The position numbers were made by a program, and so were the translations under genes. From Yuukianura sp. NJ FZ-2021 (taxonomy: Eukaryota): a stretch of 64,000 nucleotides of DNA. The notes under the pieces were generated by a model. That model did not search any database. It had not been told where the DNA came from and saw nothing but the letters and a program-made list of their open reading frames with translations. The DNA lies in contig CM102285.1 in assembly GCA_046563655.1 (NCBI GenBank), positions 7,006,001-7,070,000 of the forward strand. Direction: 5' to 3'. This document shows, in pieces, positions 1 through 21,293 of this stretch. Position 1 is the stretch's first letter. Each line of letters starts with the position of its first letter.

Positions 1-2993
1 CACTATTACGAAATTCGACGTCAAATCAAGATACCACGAATACTGTGTTTCAGTCAAAGTTCGTCCCGTCGTCGATGCTACATTGGGCAACAAGTTACTC
101 AAGCTTTTTCCTGACATGACCATCACTCGAGCCGGCGGGCGTAGACACGCTGACCGTTCCTACTGTGGAATCACCTGGTTAAACTCTCCACCAAATTCAT
201 CAAAAACTTCAAACCATTCTCACAAGGACGACCTTGGACTGTTGCTGGCCAAACTGAAGACATCAATTCCCACCCTCAAACATGTTCCAAAGGGAGCCAG
301 ACGTTCAACGGCGGAATGCCTTTCCAATTTGATCAATGATGTCACCTCATCTAACTCCAAGGAATCCTGGTCAAACCTTTTATTATTTCCTTTCTTCATC
401 CTATCTTCACCTAAGAAGTCTGACAACGTTTCCAATCTAACAACATGGGTGAAGTCCAAGATTTCTAACTTATCATCATCATTACCTTTAAACCTGCACT
501 CATCTTCAATCTCCAACTCCGTTTTCCACTCCAGTCAGAGAAAACCTTCAGACTTTAAATTGTCTTCTCGGATTCTCTCCAAGCTTGCTGATGGCGACAT
601 CCACGGAGCGGTTCGTCTACTCTGCTGCGACGACACTTTGGCTACCGAAGATAGTGCCACACTTGACGCCCTACAGCTTCTACATCCAAAACACCCCGAA
701 CCGTGTCAACTTCCTGTTCAAACACTGCCAAACGAAATCCATTTTGAAGATCAACAAATAACAAAGTCAATCCTTTCATTCCGGAATGGTTCTTCGGGAG
801 GCCTAGATTCTTTGCGACCACAAATTCTCAAGGAGCTAATCTCAAAATCAACGGGAGATGCAGGCATCAACCTCATATCTTCAATTACGAAGTTAGCCAA
901 TCTCGTTGTCAATGGTTCTCTTCCTAATCAAATTCGTCCACTCTTTTTCGGAGCCTCGCTCGTTGCCATTGAGAAGAAAACTGGAGGCATCCGTCCGATT
1001 GCCATTGGTTTGGTTTGGCGACGCCTAGTCTCGAAACTCGTCCTGTCCGAAATGATGAAGAATCTTACCAACTACCTGAGTCCTACACAAGTTGGCGTTG
1101 GCGTGAAGAACGGAGCAGAAGCAGTCGCCCATGCTGCTAGAATCTACGTAAATACTCCTCATCCATCCCCTAAGGTGCTGCTCAAGATGGACTTCCGCAA
1201 CGCATTTAATCTTATTCGAAGAGACAAAATGCTGCAATCAGTAAAGGATAGCTTCCCTGAGTTCTACAACTTCGTATCTCAATCCTACTCAACGGATTCC
1301 GACTTGTTCTATGGATCCTGCCGATTAAAGTCCAGCCTAGGTGTGCAACAGGGGGATCCCCTTGGCCCAGCCCTCTTTGCCCTGACAGTCCATCCCATGG
1401 CTTCTTCTATCAAGTCCGAATTCAATGTCTGGTATCTCGACGATGCTACTATTGGAGACTCTCCTGATGCCGTCTTATCTGAACTGAAGCGAATTGATGA
1501 AGATGCTGCTAATTTTGGCCTACAGCTGAACTTCAAGAAGTGTGAAATTATTGTCGTCAGCGCAAGTCCATCTGAAAGTTGCTCCATTGTGAATTCTTTT
1601 CGTGCGTTTGCTGCCGACATTGGTGTCGTTAACGAAGAAACCGCCGAACTCCTTGGTGCACCTCTAACCACTGCTTCCTGTCGTCGTATAATCAAAAAGA
1701 AAACAGAAGATTTCAGTCGCCTCTCTGCAAGGCTCTCTTTACTACCTGCCCACGCCGCTCTATTCCTCCTAAGAGCTTCTATTTCTACCCCGAGGCTGAT
1801 TTACTTCCTACGTTGCTTCCCATCGTTCCTGGAAATCGATCTTCTGACAACCTACGACAATTGTCTTCGTCAAGTCCTAGTGAACATCATGAACATCAAC
1901 TTATCAGAATCCTCTTGGCAACAATCTTCTCTTGCTGTCTCCGAAGGAGGTCTGGGAATCCGTCATGCAGTTGATTGTGCTACTGTTTCGTTTTTGGCCT
2001 CAATCCACTGCTGTTCTGATCTGGTCAACCTCTACCTGCCAAGCGGTCTGTCACCTTTCGATCTCTCTTTTGATCTGGCTTCGACACAATGGATGGAGAA
2101 AGGCTTCCCACTCCCAGAAAATCCAAAACTACAAAGACAATGGGACCTTGAAATCAGTAAAAATACCTCGAACGAACTGCTTCACAAGTGCTCAACACCT
2201 ACTGAAAAAGCTCGCCTCCTTGCTGTCGCTTCTGCACATGCAGGTGACTGGTTAAACGCGATTCCTTCACCTCAACTTGGAACTCTGCTAAATAACGAAT
2301 GCTTCCGAATCTCATGTGCTCTGCGCCTCGGATCAGATATATGCCTTCCACACAAATGTGCTTGCGGAGCTCAAGTTTCTACCGACGGACTTCATGGCTT
2401 AAGCTGTTTGAAAAGCGCTGGACGACACTCAAGACATAACTCTGTGAACGACTTAATCTTCCGTGCGCTTCGCTCAGCAGGAATCCCAAGCATCAAGGAG
2501 CCGCCCGGTTGCTCGAGATCTGACGGAAAACGACCGGACGGCATCACATTAATTCCTTGGAAGTCTGGTCGCTGCTTAGCGTGGGATTTTACATGTCGGG
2601 ATACGTTTGCATCATCCTACGTTCACTCATGTTCAAACGTCTGCGGGCATGCCGCTGCTCTCGCCGAAACTCATAAACACAACGTTTATGCAGACCTTCA
2701 AGATCGTTTCATTGTATCAATCATCGCTACTGAAACATCTGGGGTCATTGGAGACGAAGGTATGAAGACGCTGAAGTCTATTGGCCAACGGATTGCTGAA
2801 TACACTGGTGAACAAAAAGCCACGTCGTTCCTTTTCCAGAGAATTAGCCTTGAAATGCAACGTGGTAACTGTGCCTCCATCTTAGGAACGCTTCCTCCCG
2901 GAAGAGAATTATTCGAAATATTCTATCTCTAGTATTTAAGTTTCATTCAAGTGTTTTTAAATTAAGGTTCAGTAAAAATAAAATAAAATAAAA
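1..2993 (+). mobile_element. RLE-type non-LTR retrotransposon, 3' part with short UTR and (AAAAT)n tail
   Basis: ORF as above, followed by a ~40-bp UTR and aaaaataaaataaaataaaa at ~2975-2993. The 5' end lies outside the window. Confidence 0.88.
2..2932 (+). CDS. Non-LTR retrotransposon single ORF (CRE-clade-like): RFX-like winged helix, reverse transcriptase, Zn-knuckle, restriction-like endonuclease; 5'-incomplete
   Basis: Frame is open from base 2, so the TTG at 83 is probably not the true start. RT motifs: GLDSLRP, KKTGGIRPIAIG, LKMDFRNAFN, GVQQGDPLGPALF, WYLDD, GLQLNFKK, GGLGI. C-terminal CACG..HGLSC, RHSRHNSVNDLI, RPDG, WDF and AETHK fit a CCHC knuckle plus PD-(D/E)xK RLE. No stops or frameshifts. 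Confidence 0.93.
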   Translation, partial: TITKFDVKSRYHEYCVSVKVRPVVDATLGNKLLKLFPDMTITRAGGRRHADRSYCGITWLNSPPNSSKTSNHSHKDDLGLLLAKLKTSIPTLKHVPKGARRSTAECLSNLINDVTSSNSKESWSNLLLFPFFILSSPKKSDNVSNLTTWVKSKISNLSSSLPLNLHSSSISNSVFHSSQRKPSDFKLSSRILSKLADGDIHGAVRLLCCDDTLATEDSATLDALQLLHPKHPEPCQLPVQTLPNEIHFEDQQITKSILSFRNGSSGGLDSLRPQILKELISKSTGDAGINLISSITKLANLVVNGSLPNQIRPLFFGASLVAIEKKTGGIRPIAIGLVWRRLVSKLVLSEMMKNLTNYLSPTQVGVGVKNGAEAVAHAARIYVNTPHPSPKVLLKMDFRNAFNLIRRDKMLQSVKDSFPEFYNFVSQSYSTDSDLFYGSCRLKSSLGVQQGDPLGPALFALTVHPMASSIKSEFNVWYLDDATIGDSPDAVLSELKRIDEDAANFGLQLNFKKCEIIVVSASPSESCSIVNSFRAFAADIGVVNEETAELLGAPLTTASCRRIIKKKTEDFSRLSARLSLLPAHAALFLLRASISTPRLIYFLRCFPSFLEIDLLTTYDNCLRQVLVNIMNINLSESSWQQSSLAVSEGGLGIRHAVDCATVSFLASIHCCSDLVNLYLPSGLSPFDLSFDLASTQWMEKGFPLPENPKLQRQWDLEISKNTSNELLHKCSTPTEKARLLAVASAHAGDWLNAIPSPQLGTLLNNECFRISCALRLGSDICLPHKCACGAQVSTDGLHGLSCLKSAGRHSRHNSVNDLIFRALRSAGIPSIKEPPGCSRSDGKRPDGITLIPWKSGRCLAWDFTCRDTFASSYVHSCSNVCGHAAALAETHKHNVYADLQDRFIVSIIATETSGVIGDEGMKTLKSIGQRIAEYTGEQKATSFLFQRISLEMQRGNCASILGTLPPGRELFEIFYL

Positions 2994-5414
2994 GTTTATT
3001 TTTATATGCGGTTGACAATACTATTCTCAAAAGCACTGTTATGTGTATTACAGCGTCAGCTTACTACACACAATCCAAATCACAGTTATTCGACCCTTAC
3101 TAAACCCTCCACTTCCTCCGCGTCCAAATGTCCGCTTTGTTCCATTTCATTTCACAGTGTTCAAAATAGTTATTACCCTAGACGAAAAATGTAATTCTGC
3201 CAACTTAACAGTGAAAAAAAGAGCAAGTTGACCTACACTAAAAAGTTACAAAAGTTGTTTGTATTTTTTAAGGCTTCTGTTAGTTCAACACTTTGCAAGT
3301 AGAATCACAAAATTCATTTCAAACGTGTAGACCTTTTACCTTTGCTTCATTTTAATGTTAGAAATGATAGAAAAATTAGCCAACAGCTCAGTTTAAAACC
3401 GCTTCACACCCAAGTTGAGTATCAGTAGCAGGGAAAAACTGCCTAAATTTTGGCTCTGGTGTTGTGCTTTGTTGCCGCCATATGCCGAGTATGGTCTACT
3501 ATATGTTAAATATTTAGAAGATATCGTGAAACAGTATAGGAGGATTTGTTTACTACAGCCTTATGGTTGTTTTAGCGTAATTTTAGAATACATTTTTCAA
3601 ATTTTGTCGGTAACTACTGATTCAGATCGATACAAATGGTGCGCCGTGCTCAACTTAGGCAACCTACAGATACCTTTGGAACCTTTGGAGAACGAGGAAT
3701 TTGTGTGTTACCAAGTAGCGTGTCGTGGTATGTATTAATTAAGTCGTTTCTCTTCTGCCGACTAGAACTAACGTCCCTGTCGAGGTAGAGGCGAGAAAGC
3801 TCAGGTGAAAGCATTAGAATCACTTGGGGAATTCTAAATTCAATTTCACTTTCTCATTTTTCACAACCCAAAGACATTAACGCCCTCCTGGTTTGCCTGA
3901 TTTCCCGACTCTGCTCTATTGACCTTTGACCTCTCATCAGCCATGAGTCGCTTAACCGAACGCAATCCTAACATAAGCCTAATCCTTCCACAACTTTTTG
4001 TAAATAATTTGTTCCACTAGCTCACCTTAAAGTAAAAATCAATTCCTTACTAGACCACAAATATTCTCCTCACCCAGCAGCACTACTCCTCGCGTTGCAG
4101 TTTTTTTAACGTTCGTTTACGTGGGCCGAATCTAAACATTTCTCTGGATTTAAACATTCCGCTTAATATAACTGTGTGTAACTTTTTTCGTTTGTTAAGT
4201 TTAAATTTTTATTCTACTCGTTCCTTCTTTTTTGGATTTTCAGAAGCAGAAAAGTGTTTTTGTTCTTTTTGTTTGAGAAAGCAAATTATTCCACAGGCAC
4301 GACCACTTTCTGTCTCTTGTTCCTCTTCGTTGGTTGCGTCAAGTAACATGTGGATTTTTGTGAAAAATCCGATTCAGCGAAATGGTGTAAAAAAGACAAA
4401 GACAAAGAAGATGCCAGATCGTATTTGCCAGATCAAGTAGTTTCTCCTTCATCGAGAAAATTTATGTCCCTCTGTCCTCCTGTACTGAGATATGTACTTT
4501 GGTCTCTCGAACTTCTTCAAGGAACCATATGAGGAGACTTCTGGAAGTTCTGGACAAAGGAAGTGTGATAGGACGTTCACAAAGCGAAAGTGGCCAAAAC
4601 CCAGCTTCACTTTCACTTCTCCCAGAAAAACAGGATAAGGGTATCCGTCTATGAAGTTTCTTACCGGGAAAGCTCACATTCTAAATCCAATTCCGTCCAT
4701 TGAAAAAGTAAAATCCACTTCACAAGCTCCCTTTTCCCCAGTCTATCTTTTTCTCAAATCTCATGACGAAAAGGGACACCCTCCACTTTGGACTCTAACT
4801 GCCCATCTCTAGGGCTCGTCCCTTTTTTAGGACTTGTACATCCGGACTAGACGGAGAATAGACGGGAAACATAAGCGTTTCTTTGCCACTTCCCAATCCC
4901 TTCAAATTTTCCATTTTTTGTTGATGTTCTCTTTTCAAAATTATTTGGTTCCATATCCATATCCTTACCCGACAAACACCAGCTTGATGGCATCATGCCG
5001 GTTAGGTGATGGAATGATGGCATTCTGATGGCACCGAGTCCGCCATTACGACCATGCGTAGTCCCAGCAATGTACCGGTGCAATGAAATGTTACGGGAGT
5101 TTAGTGCCAGCAATTAAGGCTGAATTCAGGACTACCCGCGCTGGTACAATACAGCGGAGAGATGCAATACCGACTTTACTGGTCGACAGCATCTCCCCAG
5201 TACCAAGCCAATGTAAGTTGAGAAAGGTGTTTTACATTTGGCGTGCCGGTACATTTCCAGTGTTGGGCCATTATGTGGATCTGAAAATGTTTCCCGCCAC
5301 TTTCAACAATGGGATATATTTGAGGTTGTATAAAAAAGGAGGTGTTGCATCATCTCTTTAGCTCAATTGAGCTTTCCTGTATACTTGTACTCAGTCTGTT
5401 ATATAATAATTGAG

Positions 5415-21058: not shown

Positions 21059-21293
21059 CAGGGTGTGGCACGTAAAAGTATACACTTCAACAATAAACAA
21101 TTTGTTTATTTTGCGGAATTTGACTTGGTATGTTCGAAAAATTGACGTTTTATGAATGTAATATCATGGTTTATATCAAGGAATGCAAAAATTGAAGGTC
21201 TAACTCCCAATTTTCGACGGGAAAGTCGGTTATCCAGGTCTTGTAACCAATAGCAACTAATTATAAGTGTATACTTTTATGTGCCACACCCTG
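21059..21293. mobile_element. Tc1/mariner-type MITE
   Basis: 29-bp TIR cagggtgtggcac(g/a)taaaagtatacactt with one mismatch; TA TSD. Confidence 0.88.

What the first reader, a model, noticed from the sequence alone, without database searches (positions are those of the whole stretch)
2..181. RFX-type winged-helix DNA-binding domain fused to a CRE-like RT/RLE retrotransposon
Seen: the frame is open from base 2 and reads ITKFDVKSRYHEYCVSVKVRPVVDATLGNKLLKLFPDMTITRAGGRRHADRSYCGITW. A Ser/Asn-rich linker and an intact RT-CCHC-RLE follow. Knowledge: the RFX DNA-binding domain has the pattern Y..(H/Y)C......P...A.FG......F......R.G.R.....Y.G(I/L). By eye this segment matches it with no gaps over ~59 residues (Y, C, P, A, G, F, R.G.R, Y.G in register). 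RLE retrotransposons normally use zinc fingers or Myb domains for targeting. Inference: this lineage may use a captured winged helix for target-site recognition. The ORF track truncates the domain by starting at 83.
Basis: partly seen in the sequence, partly recalled or inferred. Interest (0 to 1): 0.85.

Follow-up and report, generated by a model that had tools for sequence, protein, structure and literature searches.

The report
RFX winged-helix domain on a retrotransposon
The window starts inside a jumping gene that copies itself through RNA, and where its relatives carry zinc fingers for gripping DNA it carries a DNA-binding domain otherwise known from RFX transcription factors, which suggests these elements change where they land by swapping such domains.

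Summary
Confirmed. Frame +2 is open from base 2 to the stop at 2930-2932, 976 codons, and is cut at its 5' end by the window edge. Residues 3-58 match Pfam RFX_DNA_binding: 31.5 bits alone against a cut-off of 27, but 25.1 bits in the whole ORF. They also match human RFX5 in the PDB at E 8.3e-5. About 20 N-terminal profile positions lie outside the window.

The rest is an intact R2-like protein with a reverse transcriptase, a CCHC motif and a restriction-like endonuclease (RLE). Its AlphaFold2 model has pLDDT 93.6 and aligns with R2 structures to their C-termini.

The fusion is not a chimera of this copy. Relatives at 43-56% identity, from springtail, soil metagenomes and Logan assemblies, carry RFX at the same in-frame place, often after an ING-like PHD finger. 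The RFX domain of relative P0004 superposes on RFX1 bound to X-box DNA, with TM 0.92 and rmsd 1.1 A. All RFX carriers fall in one 26-row clade of 192 rows, where other members have C2H2-like fingers at that place.

DNA targeting by RFX is inferred, not shown. The "CRE-like" label could not be tested. Six full-text searches found no description. I rate it a new variant of a known kind.

The parts
2..181 (+). C-terminal three quarters of an RFX winged-helix DNA-binding domain (helices H2 and H3 and the beta-hairpin wing). Helix H1 and everything upstream lie beyond the window start.
   Evidence: Pfam PF02257, profile positions 21-76 of 79: 31.5 bits alone, 25.1 bits in the whole ORF. RFX5 8zjr_M at E 8.3e-5. 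The AF2 model gives H4-17, H25-35, E40-43 and E52-55, with block pLDDT 88-90 over residues 1-40, 68 over 41-50 and 85 over 51-60. The fragment aligns in register with 12 element RFX domains.
182..241 (+). Ser/Asn-rich, predicted disordered linker (residues about 61-80).
   Evidence: pLDDT under 50 at residues 65-73. Identity to relatives is only 0-37% here, against 22-51% in the RFX part.
242..967 (+). Conserved N-terminal extension of the RT (residues about 81-322).
   Evidence: Conserved across the 11-row and 116-row alignments. Model residues from 81-111 onward align with LINE-1 ORF2p and R2 proteins.
968..1570 (+). Reverse transcriptase domain, including YLDD at residues 478-481.
   Evidence: Pfam RVT_1, residues 323-523, E 6.1e-19. 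D480 is invariant and D481 nearly invariant in 116 sequences.
2357..2407 (+). CCHC zinc knuckle (C786, C788, H798, C802).
   Evidence: C786, H798 and C802 are invariant and C788 is at least 90% conserved in 116 sequences. Also conserved over 192 rows.
2498..2689 (+). Restriction-like endonuclease core (E833-P834, R844-P845-D846, W861-D862-x-T864, K892, Y896).
   Evidence: D846, G847, W861 and Y896 are invariant; E833, P834, D862, T864 and K892 are at least 90% conserved. R2 structures align with the model up to residues 968-975 and to their own C-termini, Z 22-24.
2930..2932 (+). Stop codon TAG.
2933..2996 (+). Short 3' UTR ending in GTTCAGTAAAAATAAAATAAAATAAAAG. This is the probable 3' end of the element; the boundary is approximate.
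   Evidence: The nearest relative L001 has a similar ...GTTCAGATAATAAAAAG 65-81 nt after its stop. Contig pieces of three runs begin at 3004, and 2966-3003 is flagged as a repeat where reads are cut.

Best explanation
Window 2-2996 is the 3' part of a single-ORF non-LTR retrotransposon with the R2-like architecture: an N-terminal DNA-binding module, an RT extension, the RT, a CCHC knuckle and a restriction-like endonuclease (RLE).

In this lineage the DNA-binding module is an RFX winged helix, not the C2H2-like fingers seen at the same place in sister and outgroup elements. Complete relatives add an ING-like PHD finger upstream, giving PHD - RFX - linker - RT - CCHC - RLE.

Shown here:
- the identity and fold of the RFX domain
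- its fixed, in-frame position in a clade of elements 43-56% identical overall
- its conservation at about the level of the neighbouring N-terminal region and above the linker
- intact catalytic motifs
- other, diverged copies in sequencing runs

Inferred by analogy with R2:
- The element integrates by target-primed reverse transcription.
- The RFX domain, through its wing and helix 3, anchors the ribonucleoprotein on target DNA.
- Where a PHD finger is present, it biases integration towards H3K4me3-marked chromatin.

The bound DNA motif is unknown. It need not be the X-box, because the wing is the most variable part of the domain among these elements.
For: RFX identity:
- Pfam and PDB matches of the window fragment.
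- A profile of 13 element domains hits RFX5 at E 7e-17 and the RFX1 DNA-binding domain (1dp7_P) at E 5e-15.
- The AF2 model of relative P0004, residues 50-200 (pLDDT 88.3), matches 1dp7_P at E 3.4e-7, TM 0.92, rmsd 1.1 A and 41% identity over 75 columns. Its PHD part matches ING1/ING4/ING5 PHD fingers bound to H3K4me3, TM 0.72-0.78.

Stable fusion:
- Pfam RFX at or above the cut-off, together with RVT_1, in P0002, P0003, P0004, P0005, P0009, P0015, P0121, P0123 and L003.
- In L064 the RFX hit is above the cut-off and the RT stands in a later, 3'-open frame, read by eye.
- Below the cut-off in P0001 and P0122.
- A PHD lies upstream in P0003, P0004, P0005, P0015, P0123 and L064, and in L001 in another frame.

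Phylogeny: in a 192-row core tree all 12 RFX rows lie in one starred 26-row clade. The window is sister to P0001+P0002 (100*), then P0004 (97*).

Constraint: identity of the window to P0001 and P0002 is 45-51% in the RFX part, 17-32% in the linker and 47-50% in the next region.

R2-like body: the whole-ORF model has pLDDT 93.6 and pTM 0.89. Foldseek's top 7 hits are R2 proteins, E 6e-22 to 1e-17 over 866-1017 columns. VIA-align gives Z 22-24 with ranges reaching model residues 968-975.

Other copies: X1 records 1 and 2 both cover 1442-2184 with 68 and 52 differences, so at least two further diverged copies exist. Of the 269 X1 contigs laid on the 6-kb stretch, 103 are 90-95% alike.
Against: - No DNA binding or target preference was measured.
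- Only two 3' junctions were available (window and L001). Neither has an X-box nearby: the nearest GTTGCC half-site is about 470 bp away in the window and there is none downstream in L001 (the motif was recalled from memory).
- The wing, which contacts the major groove in RFX1 (PMC2533330, passages read), is the least conserved part. It has deletions in P0001, P0006 and P0122, and in the window it reads RRHADRSY where the RFX1 chain has RGNSKYHY. The window's domain scores only 25-31 bits, against 70-80 for P0004 and P0121.
- RFX versus C2H2-like needs 4 changes on the 28-row IQ-TREE, at least 3 of them forced by starred branches. The module is therefore gained, lost or swapped repeatedly and is not indispensable.
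- The 5' end of this copy is outside the window, so its start codon, helix 1 and any PHD finger are unseen.
- In L001 the PHD ORF is out of frame with the main ORF.
Confidence: 0.75

Rival explanations
1. The RFX domain is a genuine, retained part of the element but does not choose the integration site. It might bind the element's own DNA or cDNA, compete with host RFX factors, or serve nuclear or chromatin retention.
For: No shared motif is seen at the two available 3' junctions. The insertion is not in a multicopy RNA gene: 0 Rfam families in the whole 64-kb window. The wing is variable and sometimes deleted.
Against: The RFX domain occupies exactly the slot of the N-terminal C2H2-like fingers of sister elements. 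In R2 the N-terminal domains contact target DNA; this rests on established knowledge of R2 and on the titles of the PDB entries listed.
Confidence: 0.2
2. In the window's own sub-lineage the RFX domain is a decaying relic that no longer binds DNA.
For: The Pfam score is low: 25.1 bits in the whole ORF and 31.5 alone for the window, and 18.9 for sister P0001, which has a wing deletion.
Against: The domain is conserved above the linker level between the window, P0001 and P0002. It is folded with block pLDDT 85-90 in the model, apart from 68 over residues 41-50. R43, G45 and R47 (R-x-G-x-R) and Y54 and G56 (Y-x-G) are retained in register with RFX5. The 976-codon ORF is uninterrupted.
Confidence: 0.12
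3. The fusion is a chance chimera: a 5'-truncated element landed in frame behind an exon of a host RFX gene, or the assembly joined them.
For: Only one copy lies in the window, and its 5' part is unseen.
Against: More than ten independent relatives from other sources have RFX at the same in-frame position, with colinear full-length alignments. A 532-nt contig of run X2 spans window 1-334 with 0 differences and runs 191 nt further upstream, although it may come from the same sample as the window.
Confidence: 0.02
4. It is a domesticated host gene, an RFX transcription factor with an RT tail, as RefSeq's name for the Folsomia relative ('RFX-like transcription factor daf-19') implies.
For: NCBI gives P0009 that name.
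Against: No RFX activation or dimerisation family is found in the window ORF or in the relatives scanned (window ORF scanned up to E 10, relatives up to E 0.01). The RT and RLE catalytic positions are intact. Several paralogues come from one springtail species, with truncated forms (P0005, P0009, P0010, P0013, P0024). Diverged extra copies stand in the runs. The 3' end is an A-rich tail.
Confidence: 0.03

Closest known systems
R2 non-LTR retrotransposons (R2Bm, R2Tg, R2 of Platysternon; PDB 8gh6, 9nl3, 9nl2)
   Same: Single ORF in the order N-terminal DNA-binding module, RT extension, RT, CCHC, restriction-like endonuclease. The model aligns over 699-752 residues, Z 22-24, through to the C-terminus. 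The presumed mechanism is target-primed reverse transcription.
   Different: R2 uses zinc fingers plus a Myb domain and sits in 28S rDNA (PMC13188248 and PMC13580325, passages read). Here the module is RFX, with a PHD finger in relatives, and no rRNA or other Rfam family is in the window. Sequence similarity is remote: E 1.9e-5, RT part only.
NeSL/Utopia, CRE, R4 and HERO clades of RLE-bearing non-LTR elements
   Same: RLE-type elements with N-terminal zinc fingers and, in some, an added Ulp1 protease (PMC4640811, passages read). The wider family found here also has C2H2, Ulp1 (P0093) and OTU modules.
   Different: That paper does not contain the word PHD (0 occurrences); RFX was not among the terms searched there. 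Which of these clades the window element belongs to was not tested, because no reference sequences were on hand.
Cellular RFX transcription factors (RFX1-8, DAF-19)
   Same: The same DNA-binding fold and signature. The profile of element domains hits RFX5 at E 7e-17 and RFX1 at E 5e-15. The model of P0004 superposes on the RFX1 DNA-binding domain at TM 0.92.
   Different: No other RFX-factor family was matched. The domain is followed by RT and RLE, the genes are multicopy, and the wing sequence is divergent.
ING/TAF3/BPTF-type PHD fingers, which read H3K4me3
   Same: The PHD upstream of RFX in relatives matches ING4/ING1 PHDs by profile at E about 1e-12. It matches by fold at 41-48% identity and TM 0.72-0.78 to H3K4me3-bound structures.
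   Different: It sits on a retrotransposon protein and histone binding is untested. It is not visible for the window copy because it would lie upstream of base 1.

Membership tests
RFX DNA-binding domain (Pfam PF02257) | Profile score at or above the curated cut-off of 27 bits | tested here: met
   31.5 bits and E 2.7e-7 for residues 1-60 alone, but 25.1 bits (E 2.7e-5), just under the cut-off, when scored inside the 976-aa ORF. The match is truncated by the window edge. Relatives score 32-80 bits.
RFX DNA-binding domain (Pfam PF02257) | Winged-helix fold with three helices and one beta-hairpin wing, superposable on the RFX1 DNA-binding domain | tested here: met
   Relative P0004 matches 1dp7_P at TM 0.92, rmsd 1.1 A, 75 columns. 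The window's own fragment shows H2, H3 and the hairpin at block pLDDT 68-90, but it was not fold-searched on its own and lacks H1.
RFX DNA-binding domain (Pfam PF02257) | The nine DNA-contacting residues of RFX1 are conserved | tested here: inconclusive
   PMC2533330 says nine residues contact DNA but marks them only in a figure, which is not held. R-x-G-x-R and Y-x-G are kept. The wing segment differs from RFX1 and RFX5.
RLE-bearing (R2-like) non-LTR retrotransposon | Reverse transcriptase with a catalytic YxDD | tested here: met
   RVT_1 at E 6e-19. YLDD is present, with D480 invariant.
RLE-bearing (R2-like) non-LTR retrotransposon | C-terminal CCHC motif followed by a PD-(D/E)xK-type endonuclease | tested here: met
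   C786, C788, H798, C802, D846, D862 and K892 are conserved in 116 sequences. The fold aligns with the C-terminal part of R2 proteins up to model residues 968-975. No sequence-level PDB match covers this part.
RLE-bearing (R2-like) non-LTR retrotransposon | N-terminal zinc-finger and/or Myb DNA-binding domains | tested here: not met
   An RFX domain stands in that place. The part upstream of base 1 is unseen.
Site-specific RLE elements (R2, CRE, NeSL/Utopia) | Insertion in a multicopy RNA gene (rDNA, spliced-leader, U2 snRNA) | tested here: not met
   0 Rfam families at gathering score in the whole window. The 3' flank is unannotated sequence.
CRE clade | RT groups with CRE1/CRE2/SLACS/CZAR in a phylogeny with reference elements | not testable with these tools
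   No reference sequences of CRE, NeSL, R4 or HERO could be fetched. Only R2 is in the PDB.
Cellular RFX transcription factor | The RFX DNA-binding domain is accompanied by RFX-factor domains and not by transposon enzymes | tested here: not met
   The window ORF and the relatives scanned match only RFX_DNA_binding, RVT_1 and PHD-type families, plus a sub-threshold RdRP_1 hit over the RT part of the window ORF (E 0.084). No RFX activation or dimerisation family appears.

The most novel reading that the evidence does not exclude
A lineage of RLE retrotransposons replaced its zinc-finger targeting module with a transcription-factor DNA-binding domain (RFX), placed behind an H3K4me3-reading PHD finger. 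Integration would then be steered to RFX-type motifs in active promoter chromatin. That would be a natural case of retargeting a target-primed reverse-transcription machine by swapping whole DNA-binding cassettes. The C2H2-like and RFX modules interleave on the tree, which would mean such swaps happen repeatedly by recombination between co-resident elements.
Probability: 0.25. Interest if true: 0.8.

Novelty: new variant of a known kind. Interest (0 to 1): 0.62.

Why it matters
RLE-type LINEs such as R2 are the model for site-specific target-primed reverse transcription and are being engineered for gene insertion. How their target choice evolves is usually discussed in terms of zinc fingers and Myb domains.

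A clade that carries an RFX winged helix, often with an ING-like PHD finger, at the same slot shows the N-terminal module is an exchangeable cassette. It also offers natural pairs, RFX-bearing against C2H2-bearing sisters, for testing how the module sets insertion sites.

There is an annotation consequence as well. At least one such element is named 'RFX-like transcription factor daf-19' in a springtail RefSeq annotation, so RFX gene counts in arthropod genomes can be inflated by transposon ORFs.

Tried and rejected
- **Whole genome.** None is held for this window. The upstream sequence and other copies could not be fetched.
- **Sequencing runs.** 5 DNA-type runs from 2 studies; no RNA holder is listed.
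- **Depth of laid contigs.** The summed contig depth is very low in bin 1-200 (21, 79, 0 and 2.6 in X1-X4) against 201-400 (937, 734, 210 and 28), and it falls again after about 3000. The tool warns that contig depth cannot rank parts of a gene and that filtered records make dips meaningless. I therefore draw nothing from the dip over the RFX-coding part. It stays open whether other copies in that organism share the RFX segment.
- **Search with the RFX part of P0004** (residues 112-198) in the 5.8-billion-protein index returned only P0004 itself. The word index is too insensitive, so this is no evidence on spread.
- **X-box scan.** It gave one full match at 21243, far from the element, and no half-site within about 470 bp of either 3' junction. 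GTTGCC/GGCAAC occurs 24 times against about 17 expected. With two junctions this is no test.
- **3' flanks of 7 metagenome loci plus the window** showed no common target.
- **Other ORFs in the window.** Pfam on 11 ORFs gave 0 hits.
- **Fell et al. 2025** (Nature), which inventoried RLE elements, is not held. Its text and supplements may bear on novelty.
- **Repbase** could not be consulted.
- **Clade assignment** (CRE, NeSL, HERO or R4) was abandoned for lack of reference sequences.
- **Representative search.** It lists only the best 150 of 28,328 hits, so RFX carriers outside the clade seen here are not excluded.
Full report
**Observation.** The + strand is open in frame 2 from base 2 to TAG at 2930-2932. 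That is 976 codons, and the reading frame runs off the 5' edge of the window. The ORF "starting at 83" only reflects a TTG being accepted as a start.

Pfam RFX_DNA_binding (PF02257) matches residues 3-58 to profile positions 21-76 of 79. The fragment alone scores 31.5 bits (E 2.7e-7) against a curated cut-off of 27. Scored inside the 976-aa ORF it reaches 25.1 bits (E 2.7e-5), just under the cut-off. The fragment alone also finds human RFX5 in the PDB at E 8.3e-5, the only hit below E 0.1. About twenty N-terminal profile positions (helix 1) lie outside the window.

**The rest of the ORF.** RVT_1 matches residues 323-523 at E 6e-19. In alignments of 192 and 116 family members the following are invariant or at least 90% conserved, and all are intact in the window:
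- the RT motifs, including YLDD
- a C-x-C-x9-H-x3-C knuckle (C786, C788, H798, C802)
- an E-P ... R-P-D ... W-D-x-T ... K ... Y block (E833, D846, D862, K892, Y896)

An AlphaFold2 model of the whole ORF, built with 116 relatives, has mean pLDDT 93.6 and pTM 0.89. Only the Ser/Asn-rich linker at residues 65-73 falls below 50. Foldseek's seven best PDB matches are R2 retrotransposon proteins, at E 6e-22 to 1e-17 over 866-1017 columns. VIA-align gives them Z 22-24 with 699-752 aligned residues, and the ranges run to model residues 968-975 and to the C-termini of the R2 chains. LINE-1 ORF2p scores higher (Z up to 30), mainly over the RT part: five of its seven rows end at model residues 722-774, and two reach 967.

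By sequence R2 is remote: E 1.9e-5, RT part only.

**Is the fusion a property of the element?** Only one copy lies in the window and no genome is held, so the evidence comes from relatives.

The word-indexed search gave 377 hits. The closest are 43-54% identical over the full length. They come from soil metagenomes, Logan assemblies and the springtail Folsomia candida.

Pfam results for RFX_DNA_binding:
- At or above the cut-off, together with RVT_1: P0002, P0003, P0004 (69.8 bits), P0005, P0009, P0015, P0121 (79.6 bits), P0123, and locus L003.
- At or above the cut-off in locus L064, whose RT stands in a later, 3'-open frame read by eye.
- Below the cut-off: P0001 and P0122.

A local HMM built from these domains adds P0006. 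P0017 aligns over the region but is degenerate.

The exhaustive representative search found 2,529 family representatives below 1e-30. Among the 150 listed, only five align from query residues 2-9: P0002, P0015, P0017, P0121 and P0123. In 80 metagenome loci the local HMM finds RFX upstream of the RT in L001, L064 and L003, and weakly in L002.

In every case the domain is in frame, at the same distance from the conserved region that begins near window residue 78. Window identity to its nearest relatives is 45-51% in the RFX part, 17-32% in the linker and 47-50% in the following region. This excludes a chance chimera and argues for constraint.

**Fold of the module.** I aligned the PHD+RFX regions of 12 relatives with the window fragment. 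The profile hits RFX5 (8zjr_M) at E 7e-17 and the RFX1 DNA-binding domain (1dp7_P) at E 5e-15. Its N-terminal half hits ING4/ING1 PHD fingers at about 1e-12.

The AF2 model of P0004 residues 50-200 (pLDDT 88.3) matches the RFX1/X-box co-crystal at TM 0.92, rmsd 1.1 A and 41% identity. Its PHD matches ING1, ING4 and ING5 PHD fingers bound to H3K4me3 at TM 0.72-0.78.

The window's own fragment has the matching H2, H3 and hairpin elements in the whole-ORF model. It was not searched on its own.

**Full architecture.** PHD precedes RFX in P0003, P0004, P0005, P0015, P0123 and L064, where an intact ORF starts at an ATG.

In L001, the window's closest relative with upstream DNA (53% identity, residues 2-976), a PHD ORF at 1070-1384 begins MGPKRARR... 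It ends 7 nt after the main RFX-RT-RLE frame opens at 1378, in another frame. This could be a frameshift mutation, an assembly error or something else; I could not tell.

The window copy therefore probably had a PHD finger upstream, but that is unseen.

**Place in the family.** In a FastTree of the conserved core (192 rows) all 12 RFX rows fall in one starred clade of 26. The window is sister to P0001+P0002 (100*), then P0004 (97*). The other 14 rows of that clade are:
- seven N-terminally truncated predictions, which carry no information
- six with C-x2-C...H-x3-5-H motifs where RFX would be: P0018, P0012, P0011, P0016, P0019, and partly P0008. These were read by eye. Pfam gives only a sub-threshold zinc-finger hit for P0011.
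- P0017, counted above as a degenerate RFX

Outgroup elements carry Pfam-supported C2H2 fingers, with OTU, Ulp1 or PHD modules in front, and some have a C-terminal UCH domain.

On a 28-row IQ-TREE, RFX versus C2H2-like needs 4 changes, at least 3 of them forced by starred branches. The slot is therefore an exchangeable cassette. One capture with several replacements, or several captures, both remain possible.

**Copies, ends and target.** Contigs of four runs from two studies lie on the element at 85-99% likeness. For example, two X1 contigs both cover 1442-2184 with 52 and 68 differences, so further diverged copies exist. One X2 contig spans window 1-334 without a difference and continues 191 nt upstream, but it may come from the window's own sample.

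Contig pieces of three runs start at 3004, and 2966-3003 is flagged as a repeat. The window's ...GTTCAGTAAAAATAAAATAAAATAAAAG resembles L001's ...GTTCAGATAATAAAAAG. I therefore place the 3' end near 2996.

Rfam finds nothing in the 64-kb window, so this copy is not in an rRNA, snRNA or spliced-leader gene. No X-box lies near the two available 3' junctions (the motif was recalled from memory). Two junctions are no test.

**Mechanism.** Shown: the domain identities, order, conservation and intactness. Inferred from R2: target-primed reverse transcription, with the N-terminal module holding the protein on target DNA. Here that module is an RFX winged helix, helped in complete elements by a PHD finger of the H3K4me3-reading type.

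Against a simple "X-box targeting" reading, the wing is the most variable segment of these domains, with deletions in three members. In RFX1 the wing contacts the major groove (PMC2533330, passages read). The window's domain is among the more derived. I put about 0.75 on the overall statement. Within it, the identity and architecture are near certain, and the targeting role is roughly even odds or better.

**Comparison and novelty.** The element works like R2 and like NeSL/Utopia- or CRE-type elements. Kojima and Jurka (PMC4640811, passages read) describe one to three N-terminal zinc fingers and sometimes a Ulp1 protease for Utopia/NeSL. The word PHD does not occur in that paper; RFX was not among the terms I searched there. 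The R2 papers (PMC13188248 and PMC13580325, passages read) describe zinc fingers and Myb.

The "CRE-like" label could not be tested.

Full-text searches returned the following:
- RFX with non-LTR and restriction-like endonuclease: 0 papers
- RFX with retrotransposon, reverse transcriptase, winged helix and endonuclease: 0 papers
- "RFX DNA-binding domain" with reverse transcriptase and transposable: 0 papers
- non-LTR with restriction-like endonuclease, PHD finger and N-terminal: 0 papers
- RFX with non-LTR as whole words: 9 papers. None is about an element-encoded RFX domain, judging by titles and abstract starts only.

Fell et al. 2025, which inventoried RLE elements, is not held, and Repbase was not available. 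The architecture may therefore be present but unremarked in those resources.

RefSeq names one Folsomia member "RFX-like transcription factor daf-19". The fusion has thus been seen by a pipeline and misread as a host gene.

**Verdict.** I rate it a new variant of a known kind, interest 0.62.

Noticed in passing
L001:1070-1384 and L001:1378-4872: In the window's nearest relative the PHD-finger ORF and the RFX-RT-RLE ORF overlap by 7 nt in different frames. This could be a frameshift mutation, an assembly error or programmed frameshifting; it is not resolved.
   Followed up: partly
Proteins P0027, P0031, P0036, P0093, P0065, P0096 and others: The wider family carries varied accessory modules: N-terminal OTU or Ulp1 (C48) proteases, PHD fingers, C2H2 or BED fingers, and in some a C-terminal ubiquitin hydrolase (UCH) domain after the endonuclease.
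   Followed up: partly
Protein P0009 (Folsomia candida): RefSeq names this 1101-aa RFX-RT-RLE transposon protein 'RFX-like transcription factor daf-19'. P0005 is named as an R2 polyprotein and P0024 as an R1 one. These are probably annotation errors that inflate RFX gene counts.
   Followed up: partly
Protein P0081 (tree): A protein attributed to the plant Castilleja foliolosa nests inside a fully supported 8-row clade. Five of the other seven rows are named as Lepidoptera (Plutella x2, Cydia, Tuta), and three are unnamed. This points to contamination of the plant assembly or horizontal transfer.
   Followed up: no
window:8214-8939 (-) and window:36093-36788 (-): At both places all three minus-strand frames are stop-free for about 570-720 nt, which suggests low-complexity or biased sequence. 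The longest frame of each has no Pfam hit.
   Followed up: no
window:54914-60789 (-): A run of five minus-strand open frames (226, 362, 170, 319 and 168 aa) has no Pfam match. It may be an unannotated gene or a decayed element.
   Followed up: no
window:3004-4800: The 3' flank of the element is itself covered by several diverged contigs with internal skips in the laid runs (tables 5 and 8). The element may sit in another repeat.
   Followed up: no
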